A program made the translations under genes and the position numbers. From a virus, in the IMG/VR virus record IMGVR_UViG_3300010160_002125, positions 3,352-67,351 of that record: 64,000 nucleotides of DNA. One strand, written 5' to 3'. Numbering within the stretch: the stretch's first letter is position 1; each line of letters begins with the position of its first letter. A model generated the notes under the pieces. The model was not told the DNA's origin and ran no database searches. It was given only the letters and a program-made list of their open reading frames with translations. This document shows positions 2,839 to 24,474 of this stretch, in pieces.

Positions 2839-3098
2839 TTCATATACTTTATTCGAAAGAGTAGAAATCGTTTGGGATTGCTGACTGAATATTCTTGTGT
2901 GTAGTTACCAGCGCCATCTAAGCCCATCTTGATTCCGTATTTGTCTTCCATCCAATGAGGAAATGTAGATTTAACCATACCTGCATTATCTCCTACATCT
3001 AACGTGTATTCTTTACGAACAGCATGAAGCGCCCCCCAGTATTGTTTGCGTTGTTCTGTTGCCATAATATCTTCTGGTAGTATAGTCAAGAACTCCAC
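2835..3098 (-). CDS. hypothetical protein
   Basis: ORF in a coupled run; ends FLLFRIKY. Confidence 0.65.
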   Translation of the reverse strand: MEFLTILPEDIMATEQRKQYWGALHAVRKEYTLDVGDNAGMVKSTFPHWMEDKYGIKMGLDGAGNYTQEYSVSNPKRFLLFRIKYMK

Positions 3099-3385
3099 CT
3101 AATTAAAAACATAGTGATCTGCTTTTCATTCTTAAACTTCCACACATTAAAACTCATGCGTGTTCCACAATTACATTCGGTAGTCCATGCTTGTACAGGA
3201 TCCATATCTGACTCGTTGATTCCACGTTCAAGGTCGCCACGGGCAGATATTTCATCTGTATAGGCTTGTAGTTTGAGTCCAGGTAGGCGTTGCCATTTGA
3301 TTTTAGGTTTTAATCCCATTCTGTCGTAGAAGGATTTAAGTATATCAGCAACGTGTGATTTACCCATCTGTCTCCCATGCATCAT
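3086..3385 (-). CDS. hypothetical protein, WFxLRW family
   Basis: C-terminal FKNEKQITMFLIRWSS. Confidence 0.7.
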   Translation of the reverse strand: MMHGRQMGKSHVADILKSFYDRMGLKPKIKWQRLPGLKLQAYTDEISARGDLERGINESDMDPVQAWTTECNCGTRMSFNVWKFKNEKQITMFLIRWSS

Positions 3386-3700
3386 TTAATTAATAACAGT
3401 TTCGGGCTTGTGCGTCTTAAAAACATTCTGACCACAATTACGTATAGCATCGGCTAACACCTGTGGATTTTCTCTAGCATATTCTTCTAGCTCGTCTCGC
3501 GATATGTCACTTTCAAATGCCCATATCTCCGGAAAGCGTTGCGGATTAGCCTGTGCTCGTAGTATAGCATAACGAGGGATAGGCATGTCAACTTTATCAT
3601 TGCCTTTCAATGCCGCCCAGAACTTTTTCTTTTCGTAGTCGGTAATATCAAAGATCCATTCAAATCCCAGTGTATCAAAATAAGCCATGTATGCTGACAT
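3386..3700 (-). CDS. hypothetical phage protein
   Basis: 104-aa ORF with GAGG RBS. Confidence 0.75.
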   Translation of the reverse strand: MSAYMAYFDTLGFEWIFDITDYEKKKFWAALKGNDKVDMPIPRYAILRAQANPQRFPEIWAFESDISRDELEEYARENPQVLADAIRNCGQNVFKTHKPETVIN

Positions 3701-3701
3701 G

Positions 3702-3878
3702 TTATTCCTCTATGTTAAATTCTTCTTTAATTGCTTTTGCTGTTGCCGTATCACCTTTGAACACGGCAATCTTTACGCACTCAAACACAATCATCCTAGC
3801 TAGCTTTTGAGCACGTAAAGCAATCTCTGGTGCAGGATAGTCTGCTTGTTTCATCAACAAGTTTATCTTGTCATTCAT
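3702..3878 (-). CDS. small hypothetical protein (not in ORF track)
   Basis: 58 aa, MNDKINLLMKQADYPAPE...EEFNIEE; fills the gap between neighbours. Confidence 0.65.
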   Translation of the reverse strand: MNDKINLLMKQADYPAPEIALRAQKLARMIVFECVKIAVFKGDTATAKAIKEEFNIEE

Positions 3879-4053
3879 CTGTTAATTCCCTTCGTAAACA
3901 ATCAACTGCATCGTCGTATCCATTAAGATATAGAATACGCAAACATTCTTCTACAATTGAAGTGGTCAGCTGTTCAGCAAATTCATCAGATAGTGCATAA
4001 CGGTCCCCGTGAAAGGTAGCTTGATCAACAAATTGTTTTAATCTTTGGTGCAT
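3871..4053 (-). CDS. hypothetical protein
   Basis: 60 aa, FAExxxxxIVEEC pattern resembling 3702..3878. Confidence 0.65.
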   Translation of the reverse strand: MHQRLKQFVDQATFHGDRYALSDEFAEQLTTSIVEECLRILYLNGYDDAVDCLRRELTDE

Positions 4054-11299: not shown

Positions 11300-12043
11300 A
11301 TGATCGGAATTATAGGATACGGCATGGTGGGCAAGGCCGTAGAATACGGGTTCTCTAAAACAACCTGTATTATTTCAGACCCACAGTACAACACAACTAC
11401 AGTTAAAGACGTAGTAGCCGCAAATCCAGAAGCTATCTTTGTATGTGTACCTACACCAACAGATGAAACAAACTATGCTGTACTTAAACAAGTTCTTACC
11501 AATATTAAAAATGCACAGTATACAGGTATAACTGTAGTCAAAAGCACAATATTACCGCAATACTTAGAAGTATTTGATGTAGTATACAATCCTGAGTTTC
11601 TTTCTAGGGCTACCAGCCTAGAGGACTTTGTAAACCCGCCCTATGTTGTTATAGGCGGAAATAAAGCACCACAGGTCTTAGACATTTATCGCAAATACTC
11701 TACAGTAGACACTACTAATGCTTTTTTAGTTGACATCCCCACGGCCTGTATGGTTAAATACACTATGAATAGCTTTTATGCTTTGAAGGTGATATTTATG
11801 AACGGTATGTACGATGTTGCTGAACAAATGGGTGCAGATTGGACAAATGCAACTGCAATATTAGCCAAACACCCGTGGATGGGGTCGAATCATTATCAAG
11901 TACCCGGCACAGACGGAGAAAGAGGATTCGGCGGACCGTGTTTACCAAAAGATACCAAAGCACTGGCTAGCACATACGAGCTACCACTTTTAACCAAAGT
12001 GATAGAGTTGAATAACAAATATAGAAACATTAAGGAAAGATAA
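11300..12043 (+). CDS. UDP-glucose/GDP-mannose dehydrogenase family protein (no C-terminal domain)
   Basis: GYGMVG, VCVPTP, KST, NPEFL, GFGGPCLPKD. Confidence 0.88.
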   Translation: MIGIIGYGMVGKAVEYGFSKTTCIISDPQYNTTTVKDVVAANPEAIFVCVPTPTDETNYAVLKQVLTNIKNAQYTGITVVKSTILPQYLEVFDVVYNPEFLSRATSLEDFVNPPYVVIGGNKAPQVLDIYRKYSTVDTTNAFLVDIPTACMVKYTMNSFYALKVIFMNGMYDVAEQMGADWTNATAILAKHPWMGSNHYQVPGTDGERGFGGPCLPKDTKALASTYELPLLTKVIELNNKYRNIKER

Positions 12044-13149
12044 TGGTAATTGACCTAAACGTAACTAGTACTTGCAATCTAGCATGTACCTATTGCTCAG
12101 AAGGATTTGAATGCGGACTCAGTACGCAATTTGAAGAAAACACTTCCGTGACTCTAGAAAATATTGAAGAGTTTATGAGCAAGTTTAGTGACCCTAAACG
12201 AGACATTTACTTTTGGGGTGGCGAACCTTTTGTTAATTGGGAATTCTGTCGCGGTGTGATGGAAAAGTATATTGACAATCCTAACTATAACTTTTTCTTT
12301 TATACCAACGGTGTTTATCTAAAGAAGTATATGAAAGAGCTAGTACGTTTCCATCAATCCATGCCAGGCAGACTTAAAATACAGGTTAGCTATGACGGCA
12401 AACCAGTTAACGATATCACACGCATTGACAAGACAGGCAACCCAAGTAGCAGTTTGGTTAAATCAAATTATCTTGCAGCCAAGCAAGCTGGTCTAGCAGT
12501 TAAAATGAAATCAGTATTAACTGCTGAACACTTTCATCTAATCTACGAAGCTTTCTTAGATGTTATTACCCTAGACGAAAACTATTTTCCAACACCAGAT
12601 ATGTACAGTCATTTGACTGAGGAAGAGTTCATGCCTAGACTGGCAGTGCTCAACGAAGGGCTAGCCAAGATTGCCAAGTACATTTATCTAAACAAACTGC
12701 CTCCAGAAAAGTTTGGTTGGTTCACACAAAGTCGTGCCCTATGTGCTAGTGGTATTAACTATGTGTCAGTGGACCTCAACGGCGACATTAGTCCATGCCA
12801 TGGTTGTATGTACAAAGAAAGTCATGCACACGTAATGGGTAATATTCTTAAGGCGCCGGACATTGATGCGTTGATTGCAGAGAAAACAGCAATGTATAGA
12901 GATGCACTAAAGAATCAACCACTTGATTGTATGAGTTGTGATGCACAGTTCTGTATGAAGTGTAATGCGGCTACATATGAAAAATCAGAGAAAGACACTT
13001 ACTTAGAAAAGTGGAGTGATCATACTGCTAACTGGCAAGTGTGTAAGGTATTCAAGTCTAACGAGATTGTACACCATGCATTACGTACAGCTCTAAAGTC
13101 ATACAAGAAGCCAACTATTATTATCAAAGCGGAGCAATGTACAGTCTAA
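12043..13149 (+). CDS. radical SAM/SPASM protein
   Basis: CNLACTYC, WGGEP, SPASM CASG...PC and CxxC...C..C. Confidence 0.92.
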   Translation: MVIDLNVTSTCNLACTYCSEGFECGLSTQFEENTSVTLENIEEFMSKFSDPKRDIYFWGGEPFVNWEFCRGVMEKYIDNPNYNFFFYTNGVYLKKYMKELVRFHQSMPGRLKIQVSYDGKPVNDITRIDKTGNPSSSLVKSNYLAAKQAGLAVKMKSVLTAEHFHLIYEAFLDVITLDENYFPTPDMYSHLTEEEFMPRLAVLNEGLAKIAKYIYLNKLPPEKFGWFTQSRALCASGINYVSVDLNGDISPCHGCMYKESHAHVMGNILKAPDIDALIAEKTAMYRDALKNQPLDCMSCDAQFCMKCNAATYEKSEKDTYLEKWSDHTANWQVCKVFKSNEIVHHALRTALKSYKKPTIIIKAEQCTV

Positions 13150-13150
13150 T

Positions 13151-14275
13151 ATGTTTACACTAGAGATATCAGTAACAGAAAAATGTAACCTTGGGTGTCC
13201 ATATTGTTACGTGGCCAACCGTCCCACATGGATGGAACCTGAGACTTTTGATAATGCGATGCCCGAGCTTTATAATCTAATGAAGCGTAGCAACGACAGC
13301 GAGTTTCACGTTAGCTTCTTTGGTGGAGAGCCGTTACTTAATTGGGATTTAATCACCTACGCTGTACCAAAGCTAACAGCAGACCCTAAGTGCAAAGGCA
13401 TTAACATTATTACTAATCTAACAATGATTGATGCTGATAAAGCCAAATATCTAAAAGAACACGGAGTCGGAGTCAGTTGGTCATTTGACGGCATGAGTTC
13501 TAATACTACTCGTCCGTTATTACCTTTGTTAGAAAACACTAACCCAGAAACTGGAGAATTGTTTGACGGCATCCTTGACATGTATAATCACAAGAAGGAT
13601 ATCATTACAGATTTAACTAACGGTTGTAAGGTAATGATATGGCCCGGCAATACCAAAGACATGACAGAGAACTTTGAGTTCTTGTTAAGTTGGGGAATTG
13701 AACATCCAGACTTTTCTATTGTACGTGATGATGTATGGACAGAAGATGACCTGCATGAGTATCGTAGAGAACTAATTAGACTAACCGATTGTTATATTGC
13801 TAAACTAAAAGCAGGAATACCTTGTTCAGTTGGATTCCTACGTTTATCTATCTTAGACATCTTGTACGGATTGGTCAAAGGTAAACGCCCGTTTGGTTGC
13901 TTTGCCGGAACGCACGGCGGAGTATTAATGAGCAGTGGTGAGTTTTATCCTTGTGCTCGATTTGCATCTAAGAAGATTATGAAGATGGACAGTGACTATG
14001 ACTTCAAGTACTATCAAGACATATTCAACCCACAGAACTTTGACAAGTGCGAGCCTTGCCAATTAAAACAAGTTTGTAATGCAGGATGTACATACAGTCA
14101 AGTTACCAACGGCAACAAGCCCTTAGACAGTATCTGCGAAATCTTTCATATCACTAATGAGCAGGCCATGCGTGTTGTAGAAGAATGTAAAGATGTCCCA
14201 GTATTCCAAGATTTAATACTACACTACTTACAAAATGTTGGTGTAGAGAATGAAGGCGTGGAGTGTAGAAACTAA
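13151..14275 (+). CDS. radical SAM/SPASM protein
   Basis: CNLGCPYC, FFGGEPLL, CFAG...YPC...CEPC...CNAGC...C. Confidence 0.93.
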   Translation: MFTLEISVTEKCNLGCPYCYVANRPTWMEPETFDNAMPELYNLMKRSNDSEFHVSFFGGEPLLNWDLITYAVPKLTADPKCKGINIITNLTMIDADKAKYLKEHGVGVSWSFDGMSSNTTRPLLPLLENTNPETGELFDGILDMYNHKKDIITDLTNGCKVMIWPGNTKDMTENFEFLLSWGIEHPDFSIVRDDVWTEDDLHEYRRELIRLTDCYIAKLKAGIPCSVGFLRLSILDILYGLVKGKRPFGCFAGTHGGVLMSSGEFYPCARFASKKIMKMDSDYDFKYYQDIFNPQNFDKCEPCQLKQVCNAGCTYSQVTNGNKPLDSICEIFHITNEQAMRVVEECKDVPVFQDLILHYLQNVGVENEGVECRN

Positions 14276-14568
14276 TGAAAAGCATATTAAAGATCCCAGT
14301 TAAAGTTGAAATGGCTCCGGTAGAGCATGTTTCAGACCGTGTATTATCTGTAGACGAATTATCATTGCAAATTGAAGAAGCTCGCAAGGGCAAAGCTAAA
14401 GTTGATAGTCAGTATGTTGGATACGATGATCTTAATAGAGGTCACCTCTATGACTATAAGTTTGACTACGGACAATTTCTATCTAGTATGAGTCATATTA
14501 TTAGAGAAGCCAAGAGTCGTCCGCAAGACAACCGATATAAAAATTCACATGAGATGATTATCCAATGA
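14275..14568 (+). CDS. hypothetical protein
   Basis: 97 aa, translationally coupled between two rSAM genes. Confidence 0.7.
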   Translation: MKSILKIPVKVEMAPVEHVSDRVLSVDELSLQIEEARKGKAKVDSQYVGYDDLNRGHLYDYKFDYGQFLSSMSHIIREAKSRPQDNRYKNSHEMIIQ

Positions 14569-15437
14569 TACCTATTGTTAGTGAATTTTATGTAGGAGAT
14601 AAAACAGACAAACCTGCACCTGCAGGATCGGCTGTTAATGTTCTATATTTTACTAACAAGTGTAATTTGGCCTGTACCTATTGCTATGAAGACTTGCCAG
14701 GCCGACCGCCACAAATATTAACCAAAGAAGACATTGTCAAACACGTTGATGCTATCCTTGCTCGAGAAGATCCTAAAAGCCAAACACTAATTGTATTATT
14801 TGGCGGCGAGCCTACACTTGAATGGGAGAATGTTTGCTTTGCTATGGACTATGCTTTTAGTAAAAAACGTAATGTACATTTTAACATGACCACTAACGGT
14901 ATCAAATACCTAAGTCAAAACTTCATAGATGAAACTATGAACAACTTCTTTTATAAAAAAGGGCTGTTATCTATCGACGTTAGTTTTGACGGAGTTGGTA
15001 ACAAAGATCGAGTGTTTCATAATGGTACAGATAGTACAAAGAGCATGATTGAAGTGTTTACTAATTTAGTAAAAAATAAGTTTAGATATCGTATGCGTTA
15101 TACTATTCATAAGTTTAACATAAACTATGTGTATAAGGATATGACTAAGTTAATCAAAACGTTTAATCCAGAGCGTATGATTACTAGTGTAGCTTGGGAT
15201 ACCCTATCACCTAAGGATATTGAGAAGCTATCTGAGATTAAAAATCAGCTAAGAAATGACTGGATAAATAAAGCAGTATCTGTGCCTGTATGCGAATTAT
15301 TTTGCGACATGTGCAGTGGATGCGGTGAACGCAAAGAGTTAAAGACATATTTTACTAACGAGGGTAACGTAACAACCTATGGAAATTACGAAAACTCTCC
15401 AAAATTTCATGATTTTAAGGACAAAGAAATAAAATGA
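14565..15437 (+). CDS. radical SAM protein (short Cys-rich tail)
   Basis: CNLACTYC, FGGEP, TTNG, SFDG, C-terminal CELFCDMCSGC. Confidence 0.92.
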   Translation: MIPIVSEFYVGDKTDKPAPAGSAVNVLYFTNKCNLACTYCYEDLPGRPPQILTKEDIVKHVDAILAREDPKSQTLIVLFGGEPTLEWENVCFAMDYAFSKKRNVHFNMTTNGIKYLSQNFIDETMNNFFYKKGLLSIDVSFDGVGNKDRVFHNGTDSTKSMIEVFTNLVKNKFRYRMRYTIHKFNINYVYKDMTKLIKTFNPERMITSVAWDTLSPKDIEKLSEIKNQLRNDWINKAVSVPVCELFCDMCSGCGERKELKTYFTNEGNVTTYGNYENSPKFHDFKDKEIK

Positions 15438-15845: not shown

Positions 15846-16418
15846 ATGACGTTACCAACATTAGCGGCGGGCATAGTAAAAGACATATATGGCACGGATG
15901 CTTCTGATGCTGTAACACACGGGCTTACACCTGTTAATAATACTAACAAAACATCTGGTGCTATATTTTATAATATAGCACTAAAAGCCAATGCAGAAAG
16001 AGTGAGACGTGGTAAGTCGTCAGTTAATATCCCAACAGATTATTTTACTGGAAAGTTATATGCTAGTAAAATTCAAGAAATAAAAACAAATGTAGAAGTT
16101 ACAGGCCCTGCAGAAACTCAAGCATACAATACCAACTATGGCGGCGGATCCAATAGCGGCAATCCGCCAGCAGTGACCACATTCAGTCAACTGCCTGCAC
16201 CAAGCGGAGCATCTGATTTTGTAAAAGGTGCAAAAATAACCAGTGCTATTGTTAATGCATTGATTAATGAAATTAATGCCGCTGGTAACACATGTACTTG
16301 TAACTGCAACTATTGCACCTGCAACTGCAACTATTGCACCTGCAACTGCAACTACTCATGTACTTGTAATTGCAACTACAGTGATGAACAACTTAAAAGT
16401 CAAGTGGAGTACATATAA
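15846..16418 (+). CDS. Cys-rich (CTCNCNY)4 protein 1 with S74-like SDxxxK tail
   Basis: AAGGAG RBS; ERxRRG and QAYN motifs; ends ...CNYSDEQLKSQVEYI. Confidence 0.85.
   Translation: MTLPTLAAGIVKDIYGTDASDAVTHGLTPVNNTNKTSGAIFYNIALKANAERVRRGKSSVNIPTDYFTGKLYASKIQEIKTNVEVTGPAETQAYNTNYGGGSNSGNPPAVTTFSQLPAPSGASDFVKGAKITSAIVNALINEINAAGNTCTCNCNYCTCNCNYCTCNCNYSCTCNCNYSDEQLKSQVEYI
16293..16379 (+). repeat. degenerate 21-nt coding tandem repeat TGYACYTGYAAYTGYAAYTAY x4
   Basis: equivalent arrays at 17007-17093, 17652-17738 and 18285-18371; one extra codon before the 4th unit in each. Confidence 0.95.
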
Positions 16419-17132
16419 ATGGCATTACCAAGTTTTCCAATTAGGGCATTCGCCTCGGGCGGTAGTCATGCTCCTAACGGAAATCCAGCGTACCGAGCGC
16501 AAAATGGAATTATGTCATCTGTATACGGCACTACTACCGGTAAAACAGTCAGTTATAATATAGCCGAAGTAGCATCTACTGATTTGATGCGAGAAAACAA
16601 ATTACTAGATATAGCAAACAAGGCAGTATTGGAACGAACACGCCGAGGCGGATCAGCAATACAGATACCAGGTGGATATTTTAGTGGACAAATTTATGGT
16701 TCAAGAGTTCAAGATATTGTTAATGTATTACAAGTATCCGGACCCGATAATGAACAAGCATATAACGGTACAGGGCAGGGAACTAATTCTCCCTGGGGAT
16801 ATTATCAAACTGGTAATAATGTAACATATGATAATTATGGAAATCCTATTAACAATCCAGTATATTCAGCAGTAGCCGATCCAACCGCAGTAACTTACCC
16901 AAAAGCAGCCGCACCATCGGTTGGGGTATCATTCTCTAAGGGTGATCAAATATCATCGTTGAATATCAATACATTAATTAGAACAATTAATAATGCTGGC
17001 AATGTATGTACTTGTAACTGCAACTACTGCACTTGCAACTGCAACTATTGCACCTGTAATTGTAACTATGGCTGTACCTGTAACTGCAATTACAGTGACG
17101 AAAGAGTTAAGGCAGAAGTGGAGTACATGTAA
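16419..17132 (+). CDS. Cys-rich (CTCNCNY)4 protein 2
   Basis: paralogue; ends ...CNYSDERVKAEVEYM. Confidence 0.85.
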   Translation: MALPSFPIRAFASGGSHAPNGNPAYRAQNGIMSSVYGTTTGKTVSYNIAEVASTDLMRENKLLDIANKAVLERTRRGGSAIQIPGGYFSGQIYGSRVQDIVNVLQVSGPDNEQAYNGTGQGTNSPWGYYQTGNNVTYDNYGNPINNPVYSAVADPTAVTYPKAAAPSVGVSFSKGDQISSLNINTLIRTINNAGNVCTCNCNYCTCNCNYCTCNCNYGCTCNCNYSDERVKAEVEYM

Positions 17133-17777
17133 ATGGCATCCTTAACAGCAAGCCCATACGGATATAATGCATCAAACGCTGTATCGCCTATTGGCGGCTA
17201 TGTTGGTGCTGGAATGTTAATAAGTGGATCGCACATCCGTGTTATAGCAGAAGAGGCAATCGCTGAGCGAGTTCGTAGAGGCCAAGCCAATATTACTATT
17301 CCTCCAGGATATTATTCAGGAACAATTTCAGCTTCACGTCTTCAAGACGTTATTACAGTAGCATCAGTAGCAGGACCTGCTCAAACACAAGCATATAACG
17401 GAGCATGGCAAGGATATAACAGCTCTAACGGCTATTACGATACTGGAGGTCGTACACCAGTATATGACAATTATGGTAATCTGATTAGATACGATGTAGT
17501 CTATGCGTCATTACCGGCTCCAGAAATTGTTTACTACTATCAGCAAGGCGCACCAAATTTTTATGTATCATTTTCGAGTTTAGTTGGATCAACTATTAGT
17601 GCTAGTCATATAAACGAATTAATTAGTGGAATTAATGCGGCTAAAGCCGTTTGTACTTGTAACTGTAACTATTGCACCTGTAACTGTAACTATTGCACCT
17701 GTAACTGTAACTATGGCTGTACCTGTAACTGCAACTATAGTGATGAAAGAGTGAAGGCAGAGGTGGAGTACATGTAA
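17133..17777 (+). CDS. Cys-rich (CTCNCNY)4 protein 3
   Basis: paralogue; ends ...CNYSDERVKAEVEYM. Confidence 0.85.
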   Translation: MASLTASPYGYNASNAVSPIGGYVGAGMLISGSHIRVIAEEAIAERVRRGQANITIPPGYYSGTISASRLQDVITVASVAGPAQTQAYNGAWQGYNSSNGYYDTGGRTPVYDNYGNLIRYDVVYASLPAPEIVYYYQQGAPNFYVSFSSLVGSTISASHINELISGINAAKAVCTCNCNYCTCNCNYCTCNCNYGCTCNCNYSDERVKAEVEYM

Positions 17778-18410
17778 ATGTCGTTACCTACGATATCAGG
17801 ACTAACTACATCAGTATACGGCACTAATTCTAGTAACGCTGTAGGTTATAATATAGCCGAAGTAGCATCCACTGATTTGATGCGAGAAAACAAATTAATA
17901 GAGATTGCCAATAATGCTGTATCGGAACGAACACGGCGCGGTCAATCGGCAATACAGATACCAGGTGGATATTTTAGCGGAAGAATTTATGGCTCACGGG
18001 TACAAGATATTATTAATGTAGTACAAGTAGCTGGACCGGCGGCAACACAAGCATATAATGGCGCAGGACAGGGAACTAACAGTAGCGATGGAAGAGGCCC
18101 AATCATTGGATATACGCCCGGCCGCTTTAGACTCCCTATATACGGTCCTTTGGTACAACCAGAAGTAGTAACTTACCCACAAACTGCGGCGCCATCATTT
18201 GGGGTATCATTCTCTAAGGGAGATCAAATATCATCGTTGAATATTAACACATTAATTAGAACAATTAATAATGCTGGTGCAGCCTGCACCTGTAACTGCA
18301 ACTACTGCACCTGTAACTGCAACTACTGCACCTGTAATTGTAACTATGCATGTACCTGTAACTGCAATTATAGTGATGAACAAGTTAAAACTAACATAGA
18401 ATACATATAA
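17778..18410 (+). CDS. Cys-rich (CTCNCNY)4 protein 4
   Basis: paralogue; ends ...CNYSDEQVKTNIEYI. Confidence 0.85.
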   Translation: MSLPTISGLTTSVYGTNSSNAVGYNIAEVASTDLMRENKLIEIANNAVSERTRRGQSAIQIPGGYFSGRIYGSRVQDIINVVQVAGPAATQAYNGAGQGTNSSDGRGPIIGYTPGRFRLPIYGPLVQPEVVTYPQTAAPSFGVSFSKGDQISSLNINTLIRTINNAGAACTCNCNYCTCNCNYCTCNCNYACTCNCNYSDEQVKTNIEYI

Positions 18411-18676
18411 TGAGTTTAGAAAAAATAAAACAGCTTCGACCCGCAGAGCATATATACACAGACAGCACAAAAGGTGATACTGTACGTAAAACTATGAGCT
18501 GTATGGCACAGAATATAAACGAGATTTGGCCAATAGAAAAATACACTATTTTGGAAAAAGACAAGGACGGTTACTTTATTGTTGCCAATCCGCATCAGTT
18601 AATTTTTCCATTGATCAAAGCAGTACAAGAATTATCTGAGGAAATTGAAAGGTTAAAAAATGAAAGAACTAAGTGA
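18410..18676 (+). CDS. stand-alone C-terminal part of a peptidase S74 / intramolecular chaperone domain
   Basis: LEKIKQLRP...MAQNINEIWP...DGY...LIFPLIKAVQELSEEIERLK matches the S74 body and its terminal coiled coil. Confidence 0.8.
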   Translation: MSLEKIKQLRPAEHIYTDSTKGDTVRKTMSCMAQNINEIWPIEKYTILEKDKDGYFIVANPHQLIFPLIKAVQELSEEIERLKNERTK

Positions 18677-19070
18677 ATATAAAGAAGTTGAAGGTATTCC
18701 AGCTAGCACTTATGCGGGCAAAGCAGCCAAGGCAGTTAAAACTAAAGCTCGCGGAATCCTAGGAGACGATTTATTAATTTTTAAATTAATAGATTTTGTT
18801 TCTTTTATGTTGCTTAATAATAAGTTTGCCAACAAAGGGATTTTTATCACCGATGATAACAAAGAAGAGTGTTATATCAAAATAATTGAAGCAGGCGACG
18901 AATCTTTAATTACAGACCTTGAAAGATATATTTCTTTAAAAGATGATATTAAAGCTATCGAGGCTAATAAAGCAGAGTACCAGGAAATTATCAAAAAATT
19001 GCAATTACTGCCTGATCAAAACGACGAAAATGCTGTAAATAAGATAGTAGAAGACTATCTAAGGAGATAA
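18660..19070 (+). CDS. hypothetical protein (possible assembly accessory)
   Basis: 136-aa helical ORF overlapping the chaperone gene. Confidence 0.7.
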   Translation: MKELSEYKEVEGIPASTYAGKAAKAVKTKARGILGDDLLIFKLIDFVSFMLLNNKFANKGIFITDDNKEECYIKIIEAGDESLITDLERYISLKDDIKAIEANKAEYQEIIKKLQLLPDQNDENAVNKIVEDYLRR

Positions 19071-20949: not shown

Positions 20950-21856
20950 TACCAAACAATACGATCTAGTGTTTGCCACATCATTTGAAACAGTACACGG
21001 AGTCACCGGCCATGTATTTGAAATGATTGAATACTGTTTTATGTGTAGACGCAACGGTATTAATGCGGCTATAGCTTTATTAGACGGTACAGATATTAGT
21101 CTAGTAATAGGACTACTAACTTCAAAGTATAATTTTAATCAAGAAGAAGTTGCAGACCTAACAGCAAATATAATAGTGTTTACACACCCTAAAATTATAT
21201 TAGCCAACAATTTTTGCATAGTTGACGGTTCACCTCGAGTCAATGGCTGTACCATTTACGCAGACAATGTATTTTTATTAAGATGCTACGACGGAGAACT
21301 AGATTTCTTTTCTAACAATAAGTCTATTAAACGTACTCATCTACTTCAAGATTTTTCAATGTACCCTGAACGATACGAGCATTTAAACATTGAAGTAATC
21401 GACTATAATAAAAAATTACTATGGGATAGGTATCATAAACCTAAGACAGTTAAAACTAATACAGCTATGTTTTATATGATGAATAGATGTAAAGCAAGAC
21501 CTGTTGATGAAGTTGCAGGGTATATTGCTAAACACACATTTGACCATTATCTTATAATAACAGATATTCCAGAACGATATCAAAGTTTAAAATCTAATCA
21601 AGTATCAATTGAAGTTGTGCCAGTTGACAATTTATTTGAAAAGTTTGACACATACATTTATACTCCAGTGACCAAAGTAGATTGCAGTCCTAGATTTATG
21701 GTTGAGTGTGCGGCATTTGGTAAAGATATCATTTACGAAATTGACTATTTAGATCCTGGAATTTTAGCAAGACAACGAGGAATAGAAGCCGGAGTAGAAA
21801 CGCTGTTGTTAAAAGATAATGACCCCTTCATCAAATACGTAAATAGATGTCTATGA
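20933..21856 (+). CDS. hypothetical protein, glycosyltransferase-like
   Basis: C-terminal FDTYIYTP...SPRFMVECAAFGK resembles the GT-B donor-binding region. Confidence 0.5.
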   Translation: MTTILNTKQYDLVFATSFETVHGVTGHVFEMIEYCFMCRRNGINAAIALLDGTDISLVIGLLTSKYNFNQEEVADLTANIIVFTHPKIILANNFCIVDGSPRVNGCTIYADNVFLLRCYDGELDFFSNNKSIKRTHLLQDFSMYPERYEHLNIEVIDYNKKLLWDRYHKPKTVKTNTAMFYMMNRCKARPVDEVAGYIAKHTFDHYLIITDIPERYQSLKSNQVSIEVVPVDNLFEKFDTYIYTPVTKVDCSPRFMVECAAFGKDIIYEIDYLDPGILARQRGIEAGVETLLLKDNDPFIKYVNRCL

Positions 21857-22929
21857 GTCAAACAATAATTCCCCGTCCAAGAAATAACGCCCTTAATGAA
21901 ATGAGCGTTCAGGGCATCGTGATGGATACAATTACACCGCAATGTAATCGAGCCAAACTTAACACAGGTACATTTTGCAACTATGACTGTGAGTTTTGCT
22001 ATTATACAGATCTTCTGGATGTAAAAACTCCGTTTGAAGTAGTCAAAGAGCGAGCAGACTATCTTAGAGATTACGGCATTACCGAAGTAGATCTAAGCGG
22101 CGGCGAAAGCTCTGTTAGTCCAGATTGGTTTAGAATATTAGACTATTGCAATGAAAACTTTGAGCATGTTAGTTGTCTTAGCCACGGCGGCCGTTTTAGT
22201 AATATAGAATTTTTAAAAGAAAGTCAAGACCACGGCTTGAAAGAAATACTGTTTAGTCTGCACGGTGCTACTAGTGAAGCGCACGACACAATCACACGCC
22301 GCAAGGGATCTTTTAACAGAATAGTCCAAGCTATTAAAAATGCCAAAGAATTAGGCATCGTTGTTAGAATTAATTCTACTGTCTATTACAAAAATTATTT
22401 CCAGTTGGCCAATGAATATGCTGATCTAATCAATGAACTTAATCCCTTAGAAGTAAACTTTATCACACTAAATTATTGGGAAGGCGTCAGGATTGAAAAA
22501 GAAAATGTCACCTATGCAGACATGACTGAACAAATAAAACGGTGTATAGATCGTTTGAATAAAAAAATAGTGATTAATGTTCGATTTGTGCCTTACTGTT
22601 ATATGGAAGGCTATGAGAAGTATGTGTGCGATCAGTATCAGCACATTTATGATCCGTGGGACTGGAATAGGGCAATGTTAACAGACGAGTTTGATCCCGA
22701 CATAGACACTACAAAAACTTATTCAGAAGAAGAAAAACTAGCGTTTGCTCATAAACAATGTGCCAGTCATAGGAATAGATTTTATAGAAAAGAGTTGAGT
22801 TGTTTAAAATGCAAGTATTTTTATATATGCGATGGCATTGAAAATGAAATAGCAGGTACTCCAGTTTATCCAGTTGACGGAGAAAAGATCAAAGAAGTTA
22901 CTTTCTTTAGAAAAGATCATTTCAAATGA
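21847..22929 (+). CDS. radical SAM protein with C-terminal CxxC...C cluster
   Basis: CNYDCEFC, LSGGE, PYC, CLKCKYFYICDG. Confidence 0.92.
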   Translation: MSMSQTIIPRPRNNALNEMSVQGIVMDTITPQCNRAKLNTGTFCNYDCEFCYYTDLLDVKTPFEVVKERADYLRDYGITEVDLSGGESSVSPDWFRILDYCNENFEHVSCLSHGGRFSNIEFLKESQDHGLKEILFSLHGATSEAHDTITRRKGSFNRIVQAIKNAKELGIVVRINSTVYYKNYFQLANEYADLINELNPLEVNFITLNYWEGVRIEKENVTYADMTEQIKRCIDRLNKKIVINVRFVPYCYMEGYEKYVCDQYQHIYDPWDWNRAMLTDEFDPDIDTTKTYSEEEKLAFAHKQCASHRNRFYRKELSCLKCKYFYICDGIENEIAGTPVYPVDGEKIKEVTFFRKDHFK

Positions 22930-23615
22930 AACTGTCTATACTAATACTAACACACAATCGTCCAAAATTATTTAACCGTTGCTTAGAAAGTGTATTAGAT
23001 CAAATAACTCCAGACATAGAAATTCTTGTCAACAATGACAGTTGTGATATTGAAGAAATTGTTCATCCACAGGTAAAATACTATTACCATAATCCAAACA
23101 GTCTATGTGAAATATATAAATTTTTATTAGAGTTAGCACAAGGAGAATATGTTTATTATCTAGAAGATGATGACTATTTGACTAAAGATTTCCTATCAAT
23201 CAATTTGGATGCAGATTTAATTACAGGTAACTATTACCCTACTTATAAAACAACTGATATACTAATCAGCATGACCATGTACAAAGATGCACACATGAAT
23301 AGCCAACAGTTTATAGCTAATCTTAACACTGAAAATCTACAACTATCTCAGCACATATACAAACGTAGTCATATAGAAGATTTTGATTTTCCAATGGATA
23401 GTAACATACACAATGATATTAGATTAACACTACACGCGGCCTCAAAAGCTAAAACTATACATACTTTGAATAAAGTATTCTTTTATCAAACTACTGACGG
23501 TAGAGACAATATTTCTTTTCCTGAGTCAATCAGCAGGGTAAATATAACGAAATCCCTAAACTTTTTGGAAAACTATGAAATATTCGGTACAACACCACGT
23601 ACAACAAGATCCTGA
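22926..23615 (+). CDS. glycosyltransferase family 2
   Basis: SILILTHNR, ILVNND, GEYVYYLEDDD. Confidence 0.88.
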   Translation: MKLSILILTHNRPKLFNRCLESVLDQITPDIEILVNNDSCDIEEIVHPQVKYYYHNPNSLCEIYKFLLELAQGEYVYYLEDDDYLTKDFLSINLDADLITGNYYPTYKTTDILISMTMYKDAHMNSQQFIANLNTENLQLSQHIYKRSHIEDFDFPMDSNIHNDIRLTLHAASKAKTIHTLNKVFFYQTTDGRDNISFPESISRVNITKSLNFLENYEIFGTTPRTTRS

Positions 23616-24474
23616 TCACATCAATGTGCATTGGGATACTCTTACCATTTGTCAGCTTAACTGTACCTATTGTTATGCTAGGAATACCTACGGTAAAGAA
23701 TGGGGTAAACTATCAAGCAAAGAAACTATTGACGGAGTAATTGAAGCACTTAATAGAAGTAGCTTGCCGTTCAATTTGGGACTGTTAGGTGGCGAACCCA
23801 CCCTTGGCCCGCACTATTATTATGTGCTTGATGAAATATCTAAATTAGAAAAGTTTAAATGGGTATATGTTGTTACCAATGCCGAGAAAGACTTTACTAG
23901 CCATCCTCACTACGATAAAGTAGCATTTCTTTTTAGTTATCATCCGGCAGATTGCACAAACAGAGATCGATTTGTTGACAATATGAAACTGATGATCAGT
24001 CGAGGATACCCTTGCAAAATAAATGTAATACTGCACCACGGCAAACAGTATTGGCCGCTGATCAAAGAAATGTTTGATATTTGTGCCAACATACCAGGAC
24101 TGAAAGTACATCCGCATTTCTTATACGGCAACAAAATGGACAAGTTGTTTAACTACCGAAAAGACTTTTGGGAATATTTTAGCTTCCTAAAAGACTTTGA
24201 AAGAGATCTTCAGTACGATGACGATGTGTTCAATGACTATGAAGTCTACAGCCAAAAGCTAACTGACTTTTACGGTTGGGATTGTTATAACAATAACTAC
24301 GAAGTTGATGTTCGTGGCAATGTAGTACAGTTCTGCATGAATGAACTAGGCGGCATAAGTTTATTAAAAGATCCTGATTTCTTTAAACGATTAGAAAAAA
24401 CTGTCCCTATTACTTGTCCTCATAAACAATGTAACTGCGACGGGCTATTAAAACAGTTAAAGGTTAAAAAATGA
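23575..24474 (+). CDS. radical SAM protein
   Basis: CQLNCTYC, LGGEPT, C-terminal C...C...CPHKQCNC. Confidence 0.9.
   Translation: MKYSVQHHVQQDPDHINVHWDTLTICQLNCTYCYARNTYGKEWGKLSSKETIDGVIEALNRSSLPFNLGLLGGEPTLGPHYYYVLDEISKLEKFKWVYVVTNAEKDFTSHPHYDKVAFLFSYHPADCTNRDRFVDNMKLMISRGYPCKINVILHHGKQYWPLIKEMFDICANIPGLKVHPHFLYGNKMDKLFNYRKDFWEYFSFLKDFERDLQYDDDVFNDYEVYSQKLTDFYGWDCYNNNYEVDVRGNVVQFCMNELGGISLLKDPDFFKRLEKTVPITCPHKQCNCDGLLKQLKVKK

What the first reader, a model, noticed from the sequence alone, without database searches (positions are those of the whole stretch)
15846..18676. Split, shared S74 intramolecular chaperone serving four Cys-rich paralogues
Seen: all four paralogues stop exactly 12 residues after the Cys array with SD-E-[RQ]-[VL]-K-x-x-[VI]-E-Y-[IM]. 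The next gene (18410..18676) reads MSLEKIKQLRP...AQ...LIKAVQELSEEIERLK. Known: peptidase-S74/ICA domains of tail spikes and fibres begin SDxRLKxNI (Ser-Lys dyad, Lys at +5, cleavage before Ser), continue ..LEKI.QL.P..AQ.. and end in a LI.A.QEL coiled coil, normally in one polypeptide. Inference: the domain is split at one point, so each client keeps the catalytic SDxxxK peptide and one free-standing chaperone body complements all four in trans. That would drive trimerisation and cleavage to expose the Cys array as the mature C-terminus. Four identical break points argue against a single sequencing error.
Basis: partly seen in the sequence, partly recalled or inferred. Interest (0 to 1): 0.92.

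Follow-up and report, generated by a model that had tools for sequence, protein, structure and literature searches.

The report
Fibre-folding chaperone domain split in two
A self-cleaving folding domain that phage fibres normally carry in one piece is here divided, so that four cysteine-rich proteins each keep only its first 12 residues (with the cutting residues) while one small neighbouring gene encodes the rest, an arrangement that recurs in many uncultured phages.

Summary
All four paralogues end 12 residues after the last CTCNCNY repeat with S-D-E-x-x-K-x-x-x-E-Y-[IM]. The 88-aa gene at 18410-18676 is the rest of a Peptidase_S74/ICA domain.

- **Not an error.** Contigs from three other studies cross the junctions without indels.
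- **Break position.** It lies at S74 residue 12/13. In 62 of 69 fused relatives the Ser lies exactly 13 residues before the residue aligned to the body's Met.
- **Relatives.** They come in three states: fused, split and tail-less. Free-standing bodies occur in 6 of 9 tail-bearing loci and 0 of 25 others.
- **Spread.** 74 of the 150 best representatives are free-standing bodies. Three loci pair a body with non-cysteine clients that carry the same 12-aa tail.
- **Docking model.** The tail docks into the body with score 0.61 against 0.02 for the best control. This may reflect likeness to solved ICA structures.

Trans-complementation, cleavage and sharing by four clients remain inferences. The scan noted this split before on a near relative (e1-6182800). 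It also noted a different S74 split in cyanophages (e1-3447529). My six paper searches found no published description.

The parts
15846..16418 (+). Client paralogue 1 (190 aa): N-terminal domain, Cys array and 12-aa S74 tail
   Evidence: ORF; aligned with 12 relatives
16419..17132 (+). Client paralogue 2 (237 aa)
17133..17777 (+). Client paralogue 3 (214 aa)
17778..18410 (+). Client paralogue 4 (210 aa). Its stop overlaps the body's ATG by one base.
   Evidence: Monomer model pLDDT 63.4 with no PDB fold match. PHROG phrog_26958, unknown function, over the Cys array.
16293..16379 (+). Cys array of paralogue 1: four CTCNCNY-type heptads (29 aa, 12 Cys)
   Evidence: translation; Cys columns invariant
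17007..17093 (+). Cys array of paralogue 2
17652..17738 (+). Cys array of paralogue 3
18285..18371 (+). Cys array of paralogue 4
16380..16415 (+). 12-aa S74 'cable' tail of paralogue 1, holding Ser and Lys(+5)
   Evidence: raises the S74 profile score to 69.3 bits when joined to the body
17094..17129 (+). 12-aa S74 tail of paralogue 2
   Evidence: 71.0 bits. It differs from the paralogue 3 tail by 3 synonymous and 0 non-synonymous changes.
17739..17774 (+). 12-aa S74 tail of paralogue 3
18372..18407 (+). 12-aa S74 tail of paralogue 4. It is the only part of the client at the modelled interface.
   Evidence: 71.4 bits; modelled interface is residues 195/196-210
18410..18676 (+). Free-standing S74/ICA body (88 aa): beta 'donut' plus C-terminal coiled-coil helix, without the Ser-Lys peptide
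   Evidence: PF13884 E 0.016, 15.9 bits, profile 16-54/58. 15 of 16 relatives hit PF13884. 62.1 bits on the profile of fused domains. The 10 best PDB fold matches are all ICA structures. 27 homologues of 57-94 aa.
12043..15437 (+). Context: three radical-SAM genes (12043-13149 with a SPASM-like end, 13151-14275, 14565-15437) and a 97-aa ORF, upstream of the clients
   Evidence: Pfam PF04055; PHROG phrog_1802; radical-SAM genes also precede the clients in related loci
18660..19070 (+). Context: conserved 136-aa gene that follows the body, or follows the client where there is no body
   Evidence: phrog_25260, unknown function; homologues downstream in L007, L010, L011, L018, L035, L036, L037 and L038

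Best explanation
This is a naturally split Peptidase_S74 / intramolecular-chaperone-autocleavage (ICA) domain.

Each of the four Cys-array proteins keeps only the first 12 residues of the domain. This 'cable' carries the nucleophile Ser and the general-base Lys five residues later. The 88-aa gene encodes the remainder: the beta 'donut' that normally encircles the cable, and the C-terminal helix that forms the trimeric coiled coil. The body is translated on its own.

Proposed mechanism (inferred):
1. The body trimerises through its coiled coil.
2. Each donut captures the tail of one client chain by strand pairing. This brings three client C-termini into register and nucleates trimerisation of the Cys array.
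3. The reconstituted active site cuts the bond before the Ser. This releases a mature client that ends in ...CNCNY.

The tail is almost the same on all four paralogues, and only one body gene is seen. So the body probably serves all four.

Shown here:
- the split itself;
- its exact position;
- its conservation;
- its association with free-standing bodies;
- conservation of the dyad.

Inferred:
- docking in trans;
- trimerisation;
- cleavage;
- sharing.
For: - **Homology of the body.** PF13884 matches at profile positions 16-54. 15 of 16 family members hit PF13884, best E 1.2e-8. The profile hits GA-1 CIMCD 3gud, fibre 8jov and MyRF 7dc3. The 10 best Foldseek PDB matches of the model are all ICA structures.
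- **Exact break.** In 62 of 69 fused representatives the Ser lies 13 residues before the residue aligned to the body's Met. Tail plus body covers the fused-domain profile from 1 to 98 and gains 7-9 bits. 1-3 of 200 shuffles and 0 of 200 random 12-mers reach this.
- **Ancestral state seen.** Seven fused Cys-array relatives carry PF13884 above cut-off, starting at the Ser right after the last CNCNY.
- **Association.** A free-standing body occurs in 6 of 9 tail-bearing loci and in 0 of 25 fused or tail-less loci. Fisher p is 6e-5, or 8e-4 after collapsing near-copies by eye. The one complete tail-less genome has no PF13884.
- **Predicted mature end exists.** Tail-less relatives end at ...CNCNY or ...CNCNYS.
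- **Generality.** 74 of the 150 best representatives are short proteins that start at the body without the Ser-Lys peptide. L084-L086 pair such bodies with ~320-aa non-Cys clients ending in the same kind of 12-aa tail.
- **Selection on tails.** S, D, K(+5) and Y(+10) are invariant in 13 clients. pN/pS is about 0.25 over six tails. Paralogues 2 and 3 differ by 3 synonymous and 0 non-synonymous changes.
- **Own translation.** Bodies have their own ATG, with GGAG/AGGA-like spacers or a TAATG/TGATG overlap. The frame relation to the client varies among 8 junctions. In L021's contig the body lies 5 kb from the client.
- **Model.** With 3 client tails plus 3 bodies, ipSAE is 0.61 (0.58-0.68) against 0.02 for the best of 3 controls. 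That mark was reached by 58 of 80 solved complexes and 2 of 110 mismatched pairs. The runs agree in at least 80% of contacts and the partner pLDDT is at least 81. The client interface is residues 195/196-210. Tail residues 203-209 lie against body 10-16, and S199-E201 against body 32-34 and 55-57.
- **Structural rationale.** In the MyRF ICA crystal structure the cleavage-site 'cable' of one subunit threads the 'donut' of the neighbouring subunit. Cleavage needs the trimer, and the C-terminal coiled coil drives trimerisation (PMC8326128, abstract and passages). The dyad acts within one chain (PMC5436001, passages).
Against: - No experiment shows binding, trimerisation or cleavage.
- The window's own body is below Pfam's gathering score (15.9 against 22 bits).
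- The complex pass may come from likeness to solved ICA structures. Halves of a split domain tend to pass for that reason. The client side has low confidence (pLDDT 45-46).
- In the monomer model the tail is a low-confidence helix (pLDDT under 50).
- Three of 9 tail-bearing loci show no body in the DNA held: L007, L012 and L033. These records are incomplete (21%, 65% and 66%), and L012 ends 23 bases after its client. In L007, however, the gene that usually follows the body comes directly after the client.
- In the window, tail plus body is one residue shorter than the canonical domain.
- Only 19% of this genome is held, so 'one body for four clients' rests on a fragment.
- If the cut 12-mer stays bound, the body would be used once per chain and would not be a shared catalyst.
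Confidence: 0.65

Rival explanations
1. Docking tag without cleavage. The 12-aa tail binds the body, but the complex is stable. The body then stays on the mature protein as a trimeric cap or adaptor, instead of acting as a released chaperone.
For: The model shows an intimate strand-paired interface. Nothing here measures cleavage. The body gene is always next to a further conserved gene of unknown function, which might bind it.
Against: Ser and Lys(+5) are invariant in 13 tails. A pure docking strand would not need them. Relatives that lack both tail and body end exactly at the predicted cleavage site. In MyRF, S587A and K592A abolish cleavage (PMC8326128 passages).
Confidence: 0.15
2. Only the last paralogue uses the body, and the tails on paralogues 1-3 are inert copies carried along by gene duplication. 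Their 3' codons would be conserved mainly because they hold the ribosome-binding site of the next gene.
For: GTGGAG in the V-E-Y codons lies 8-9 bases before the next ATG in paralogues 1-3. It is absent in paralogue 4. The C-terminal 120 bases of the paralogues are 81-91% identical, which would fit gene conversion.
Against: The 5' half of the tail (S, D, K) has no ribosome-binding role yet is invariant. Paralogues 2 and 3 differ by 3 synonymous and 0 non-synonymous changes in the tail. The near relative keeps the tail on its first paralogue although a fused-type paralogue follows it. L012 has two tailed clients in tandem.
Confidence: 0.12
3. Recoding. A -1 ribosomal frameshift near the end of paralogue 4 joins it to the body and recreates a normal one-piece S74 domain, either alongside or instead of trans action.
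For: The body's frame is open for five codons before its ATG and overlaps the end of paralogue 4. A -1 shift there would restore the canonical spacing that the split form misses by one residue. This is my reading.
Against: There is no slippery heptamer at the junction. Paralogues 1-3 are followed by another paralogue, not by a body. Among 8 junctions the shift needed would be -1 in four, 0 in one and +1 in three. In L037 the body frame opens only after the client's stop. In L021's contig the body is 5 kb away. Spacers carry their own Shine-Dalgarno-like motifs. All 74 free-standing bodies start with Met at the same domain position.
Confidence: 0.05
4. Artefact or decay. The stops would be assembly errors or recent nonsense mutations in a dying gene family.
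For: None beyond the fact that the window is a metagenomic contig.
Against: The same break occurs in four paralogues. It also occurs in 8 other contigs, in 27 body homologues of 57-94 aa and in 74 representative clusters. Contigs from three other studies cross the junctions without gaps.
Confidence: 0.01

Closest known systems
Peptidase_S74 / ICA (CIMCD) domain of phage fibres and spikes (K1F endosialidase, GA-1 gp12, T5 L-shaped fibre) and of MyRF
   Same: The sequence family is the same and so is the predicted fold. The S-x4-K dyad sits at the domain start, directly after the part to be trimerised. There is a C-terminal coiled-coil helix. In MyRF the cleavage-site 'cable' threads a neighbouring subunit's 'donut' (PMC8326128 passages).
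   Different: The known domain is one polypeptide and acts on its own chain, being used once. Here the first 12 residues and the rest are separate gene products, and several clients face one body gene. In the window one residue of the linker is missing.
Intermolecular tail-fibre chaperones encoded downstream of fibre genes (T4 gp38/gp57A, Mu Tfa, Alteromonas phage V22 gp27)
   Same: A small gene directly after the fibre gene helps trimerisation from the C-terminal end and is not part of the final fibre (PMC7289586 passages; the T4 and Mu details are as cited there).
   Different: Pfam assigned the body only to PF13884, not to any such chaperone family; I did not compare them directly. As far as I recall, none of them completes a protease active site on its client or removes a tag from it.
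S74 domains 'fused or adjacent' to fibre genes in polinton-like viruses (PMC12220804)
   Same: The paper notes in passing that chaperone-of-endosialidase units can be encoded next to the fibre domains, not only fused to them (passages seen).
   Different: The passages I saw describe no break point, no retained Ser-Lys tail and no trans mechanism. Its supplementary figure S6 could not be opened and may bear on this.
Earlier notes of this scan: e1-6182800 (same split in the near relative) and e1-3447529 (35-aa tag plus 73-aa partner in cyanophages)
   Same: Both describe a split S74 whose cleavage-site part sits on the client(s) and whose remainder is a free-standing ORF.
   Different: e1-3447529 reports a different break point (35 + 73 residues, against 12 + 88 here). 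I did not test it. These are unchecked AI notes, not publications.
Naturally split inteins (recalled, not searched here)
   Same: This is another autoprocessing protein domain that occurs in nature as two separately encoded pieces, which reassemble and then act.
   Different: The fold and chemistry differ. Inteins ligate their flanks. S74 only cuts, and it also templates trimerisation.

Membership tests
Peptidase_S74 / ICA domain (PF13884) | Significant sequence homology to the domain | tested here: met
   The body scores 62.1 bits on a profile of 69 fused domains. A profile of 16 bodies finds 17,106 proteins at E<=0.001, among them long fibres with the domain at their end. 15 of 16 relatives hit PF13884, best E 1.2e-8. 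The window's own protein alone is below the Pfam cut-off (15.9 against 22 bits).
Peptidase_S74 / ICA domain (PF13884) | Ser-Lys catalytic dyad (S-x4-K) at the start of the domain, directly after the trimerised part | tested here: met
   It is present on all four client tails and invariant in 13 tails. It is at the same position as in 7 fused Cys-array relatives and in 69 of 74 fused representatives. The dyad residues are as in PMC5436001 and PMC8326128 (passages).
Peptidase_S74 / ICA domain (PF13884) | ICA fold: beta 'donut' plus C-terminal trimeric coiled-coil helix | tested here: inconclusive
   The model has pLDDT 71.8, strands 11-18, 24-31, 48-50 and 56-58, and helix 62-87. The 10 best Foldseek PDB matches are 7dc3, 3gud and 3gw6, but the best E is 2.6e-3 and TM 0.53.
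Peptidase_S74 / ICA domain (PF13884) | Whole domain on one polypeptide with its client (intramolecular) | tested here: not met
   A stop codon follows residue 12 in all four clients, and the body has its own ATG. No indel appears in independent contigs. This is the feature that makes it a variant.
Peptidase_S74 / ICA domain (PF13884) | Autocleavage of the bond before the Ser after trimerisation | not testable with these tools
   Indirect only: tail-less relatives end at ...CNCNY or ...CNCNYS.
Peptidase_S74 / ICA domain (PF13884) | Drives homotrimerisation of the upstream part | not testable with these tools
   A 3+3 model was accepted by the predictor. A model does not show oligomeric state.
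Programmed -1 frameshift fusion | Slippery heptamer and a conserved frame relation between the two ORFs | tested here: not met
   There is no X_XXY_YYZ at the junction. The shift needed would be -1, 0 or +1 among 8 junctions. In one locus the body frame opens after the client's stop, and in one the body is 5 kb away.

The most novel reading that the evidence does not exclude
The 12-residue tail plus the free-standing body is a portable, general assembly module of phages. Any protein given the tail is captured three at a time by the trimeric body and trimerised. It is then freed tracelessly by self-cleavage. The short cut peptide can leave, so the body is recycled. A single-use intramolecular chaperone has thereby become a shared, multi-turnover one. 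With four near-identical tails it could even build mixed trimers of the Cys-array paralogues.
Probability: 0.4. Interest if true: 0.85.

Novelty: new variant of a known kind. Interest (0 to 1): 0.72.

Why it matters
S74/ICA domains are the textbook case of a chaperone that works only on its own chain and is then thrown away.

A conserved natural split would show three things. The Ser-Lys 'cable' stays on the client while the rest is a separate gene, so the domain can be supplied in trans. One gene can serve several fibres. Fibre genes can gain or lose the system simply by carrying a 12-residue tail.

This would explain a large family of unannotated ~90-aa phage proteins. At least 74 clusters at 50% identity lie among the best 150 hits. 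It would also improve fibre-gene annotation.

It further suggests a very short natural tag for templated trimerisation with traceless removal. Here it also marks the rSAM-associated Cys-heptad proteins as probable trimeric fibres, which gives a handle on an otherwise uncharacterised phage system.

Tried and rejected
- **Client in phage genomes.** A tblastn of paralogue 4 against 50,697 phage records found nothing. blastn found only the Cys-repeat DNA of 15 Campylobacter phage records, covering at most 10% of the query.
- **Client fold.** The model had pLDDT 63.4. Foldseek against the PDB gave 24 matches at E<=10 and none at E<=0.001. The N-terminal domain stays unassigned.
- **Pfam on clients and neighbours.** The four clients gave 0 families. 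The two upstream small ORFs and the 136-aa gene gave only weak chance-level hits.
- **Body in three tail-bearing records.** PF13884 and the A1 profile found no body in the held records of L007, L012 and L033. These are fragments, so this shows little.
- **Wider locus search.** A search with the body profile returned almost only canonical fused fibres. 44 of 45 matches lie in open frames of 181-2,414 aa.
- **Locus scan with P0033.** It found no relative.
- **Tree of bodies.** It held 80 free-standing and 76 fused bodies. The state needs 12 changes, against a shuffled mean of 52.3, with 0 of 500 shuffles as low. Only 8 of 151 branches are well supported, so one origin is neither shown nor excluded. 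The sample is also biased, because it is the best hits of a profile made from free-standing bodies.
- **RNA run X20.** Its contigs cross the 1/2 and 3/4 junctions. DNA can be present in such a library, so I do not count this as expression.
- **Literature.** Six searches and passages of eight papers gave no description of a split S74 with a retained Ser-Lys tail. PMC12220804 mentions 'adjacent' S74 units only in passing. PMC7824862 and PMC12632334 held nothing relevant in the passages seen. PMC2853527 notes a 21-bp repeat inside one CP220 gene and 11-12 radical-SAM genes, without a function.
- **Klebsiella phage hit.** The hit annotated 'chaperone of endosialidase' lies at the end of a 4.4-kb fibre gene, so it is not a free gene.


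Full report
**What is there**

The window is part of a 67,351-base viral record that CheckV rates 19% complete. Contigs from freshwater and lake metagenomes hold near-identical sequence.

Between 12043 and 19070 all genes lie on the + strand, in this order:
- three radical-SAM genes, one with a SPASM-like end;
- two small ORFs;
- four tandem paralogues at 15846-16418, 16419-17132, 17133-17777 and 17778-18410;
- an 88-aa gene at 18410-18676;
- a conserved 136-aa gene.

Each paralogue has a divergent N-terminal domain. Next comes a 29-residue array of four CTCNCNY-type heptads, and then exactly 12 more residues: SDEQLKSQVEYI, SDERVKAEVEYM (twice) and SDEQVKTNIEYI. Genes 1 to 4 abut as TAA-ATG. 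Gene 4 and the 88-aa gene overlap as TAATG.

**The small gene is the rest of an S74/ICA domain**

- Pfam matches it to Peptidase_S74 at E 0.016. The score is 15.9 bits, below the 22-bit cut-off. Residues 2-41 align to profile positions 16-54 of 58, so the domain's start is missing.
- It has 27 homologues of 57-94 aa.
- Of 16 aligned family members, 15 hit PF13884, the best at 1.2e-8.
- Their profile hits the GA-1 neck-appendage chaperone 3gud (E 0.007, body 3-46 to chain 17-62). It also hits a tail fibre (8jov) and MyRF (7dc3).
- An AlphaFold model has pLDDT 71.8, four strands and a helix at 62-87. Its ten best PDB fold matches are all ICA structures (7dc3, 3gud, 3gw6). The scores are modest: best E 2.6e-3 and TM 0.53.
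- PHROGs place it on the last ~85 positions of tail-fibre families.

**The break is exact**

A profile search of 1.84 billion representatives gave 17,106 hits at E<=0.001. Among the best 150, 74 are long proteins.
- In 69 of the 74, an S-x4-K lies just before the body.
- In 62 of those 69, the Ser is exactly 13 residues before the residue aligned to the window body's Met.
- The tail therefore covers domain residues 1-12, and the window's body starts at residue 14.
- In L037 the body starts at residue 13, so there the two pieces are seamless.

On a profile of the 69 fused domains:
- the body alone scores 62.1 bits over positions 15-98;
- tail plus body, joined in the script only, scores 69.3-71.4 bits over positions 1-98;
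- 1-3 of 200 shuffled tails reach these scores, and 0 of 200 random 12-mers do.

**Relatives show all three states**

A search with paralogue 4 gave 33 loci. Counting the window, the 34 loci fall as follows:
- 9 have clients with a 12-aa tail;
- 8 have only clients with a complete fused S74 domain, which starts at the Ser right after the last heptad (7 were tested on Pfam, all above cut-off);
- 17 have clients that end at or near the last heptad, several exactly at ...CNCNY or ...CNCNYS.

A free-standing body, starting at profile position 9-20, occurs in 6 of the 9 tail-bearing loci and in none of the other 25. Fisher p is 6e-5, or 8e-4 after I collapsed obvious near-copies by eye. In one of the six the body lies 5 kb from the client. 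The only complete tail-less genome has no PF13884 match.

Against the model, L007, L012 and L033 have tails but no body in the DNA held. All three records are incomplete, and L012 stops 23 bases after its client. In L007, however, the usual downstream gene follows the client directly.

**The split is wider than this gene family**

Of the 150 best representatives, 76 are 135 aa or shorter. Of these, 74 begin with Met directly at the body and lack the Ser-Lys peptide. The other two are fragments of fused proteins.

Three loci found with one such protein (L084-L086, one of them GC-rich) carry a ~320-aa client without any Cys array. That client ends in a 12-aa S-D-x-R-x-K-x-x-I-x-Y-L tail and is followed at once by the body gene.

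A tree of 80 free-standing and 76 fused bodies needs 12 changes of state, against 52 for shuffled labels. It is poorly resolved and its sampling is biased.

**Not an error and not recoding**

- Contigs from runs of three other studies cross the gene-4/body junction with no gap. Others cross the 1/2, 2/3 and 3/4 junctions.
- The body has its own ATG in every case.
- Among eight client-body junctions, three overlap by one base. The others have 1-52 bases between the stop and the ATG (one search's printed spacers), and the longer spacers carry GGAG/AGGA-like motifs. The frame relation would require a -1, 0 or +1 shift in different loci.
- In L037 the body's frame opens only after the client's stop.
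- No slippery heptamer is present.
- One oddity remains. In the window and its near relative, a -1 shift would restore the one missing linker residue. I keep it as a minor rival.

**Selection on the tails**

S, D, K(+5) and Y(+10) are invariant in 13 tails from 9 contigs. Over six tails of the window and its near relative, pN/pS is about 0.25. The pairs are not independent and there are only 12 codons. Paralogues 2 and 3 differ by three synonymous and no non-synonymous changes.

The V-E-Y codons of paralogues 1-3 also hold a GGAG for the next gene. That could explain part of the 3' conservation, but not the conservation of the 5' half.

**How it probably works**

MyRF work shows the following:
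- the Ser cleaves the bond before itself, with the Lys five residues on as base, both from one chain (PMC5436001, passages);
- the cleavage-site 'cable' of one subunit threads the beta 'donut' of the neighbouring subunit;
- cleavage needs the trimer;
- the C-terminal coiled coil drives trimerisation (PMC8326128, abstract and passages).

The cable-donut contact is thus already intermolecular in the one-piece domain. This makes a break in the linker after the cable tolerable.

A model of three client ends (residues 150-210) with three bodies gave ipSAE 0.61 (0.58-0.68), against 0.02 for the best of three controls.
- That mark was reached by 58 of 80 solved complexes and 2 of 110 mismatched pairs.
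- The runs agree in at least 80% of contacts, and the partner pLDDT is at least 81.
- The client side touches only through residues 195/196-210.
- Tail residues 203-209 lie against body 10-16. S199-E201 lie against the conserved M-A-Q (body 32-34) and body 55-57.

Solved ICA structures exist, so this pass may be from likeness. It supports the fit and does not show binding.

I therefore read the system as follows. A trimeric body captures three tails. It brings the Cys arrays into register and completes the active site, and the clients are released ending at the last heptad. Docking, trimerisation, cleavage and sharing among four paralogues are inferences.

**Novelty**

Six literature searches and the passages read found no description of this split. 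One paper notes only that S74 units can be 'fused or adjacent' in polinton-like viruses (PMC12220804).

Within this scan, the same split was noted on the near relative (e1-6182800). A different S74 split (35 + 73 residues) was noted in cyanophages (e1-3447529). These are unchecked notes.

I class it as a new variant of a known kind: the family is S74/ICA, and the new feature is the two-gene, multi-client architecture. What the Cys-array clients themselves are remains open. They have no fold match and fall in a PHROG of unknown function. In L032 one such gene lies among fibre-like genes that carry their own S74 domains.

Noticed in passing
L002:4517-5350 (same contig as L005 and L040): The nearest relative (body 95% identical) has three paralogues. 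The middle one carries its own complete but short S74 domain without the coiled-coil end (PF13884, 31.7 bits). Its two neighbours have the 12-aa tail. Fused and split forms therefore coexist in one genome.
   Followed up: partly
window 18660-19070; L007:6343-6966, L010:6815-7414, L011:6961-7380, L035:6571-7149, L037:6438-6770, L038:1799-2713: A conserved gene of unknown function (phrog_25260) follows the body, or follows the client where no body exists. It shares a motif of the type G-[YF]-x-I-T-D-x-N-R-E-E-x-Y-x-x-I-I-x-x-G-D. It is linked to the Cys-array clients and not to the S74 split.
   Followed up: partly
L084:~2990-3996, L085:~2970-3945, L086:2865-3824: Non-cysteine clients of about 320 aa end in the same kind of 12-aa S74 tail and are followed by a free-standing body. 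One locus has a GC-rich hairpin-like spacer with GGAGGG before the body's ATG.
   Followed up: partly
L007:5656-6312, L010:5914-6525, L012:5653-6390, L033:6253-6813, L035:5674-6231, L037:5470-6147: Distant clients begin with a Cys/His-rich N-terminus of the type M-[AG]-C-x-G-H-[TS]-N-[ST]-C-x-[AS]-H. They have much longer arrays, up to about 12 heptads with C-T-C-[NDQ]-C-N-Y. The window's paralogues lack this N-terminal motif.
   Followed up: no
window 16401-16418, 17115-17132, 17760-17777 versus 18393-18410: GTGGAG inside the V-E-Y codons gives paralogues 2-4 a Shine-Dalgarno site 8-9 bases before their ATG. The tail of paralogue 4 reads ATAGAA instead, so the body may depend on the TAATG overlap for its translation.
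   Followed up: partly
window 16285-16381, 16964-17060, 17643-17739, 18322-18418: Metagenome contigs pile up on the Cys-array DNA and show 3-base and 1-base length differences there, around 16332, 17692 and 18313. This fits repeat-length variation or cross-mapping between paralogues and other phages.
   Followed up: no
window 11300-12043: A 247-aa ORF matches only the end of the NAD-binding domain and the central domain of UDP-glucose/GDP-mannose dehydrogenases. It looks short for that family.
   Followed up: no
window 21847-24474: More radical-SAM genes (21847-22929, 23575-24474) flank a family-2 glycosyltransferase (22926-23615) downstream of the cluster. Earlier notes of the scan describe this block (e1-6185376).
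   Followed up: no
Campylobacter phages CP220, CPt10, CP21 and others (hits H1-H15): The only named phages sharing DNA with the region do so through the Cys-heptad repeat. The CP220 paper records a 21-bp repeat inside one gene and 11-12 radical-SAM genes, without a function (PMC2853527 passages).
   Followed up: partly
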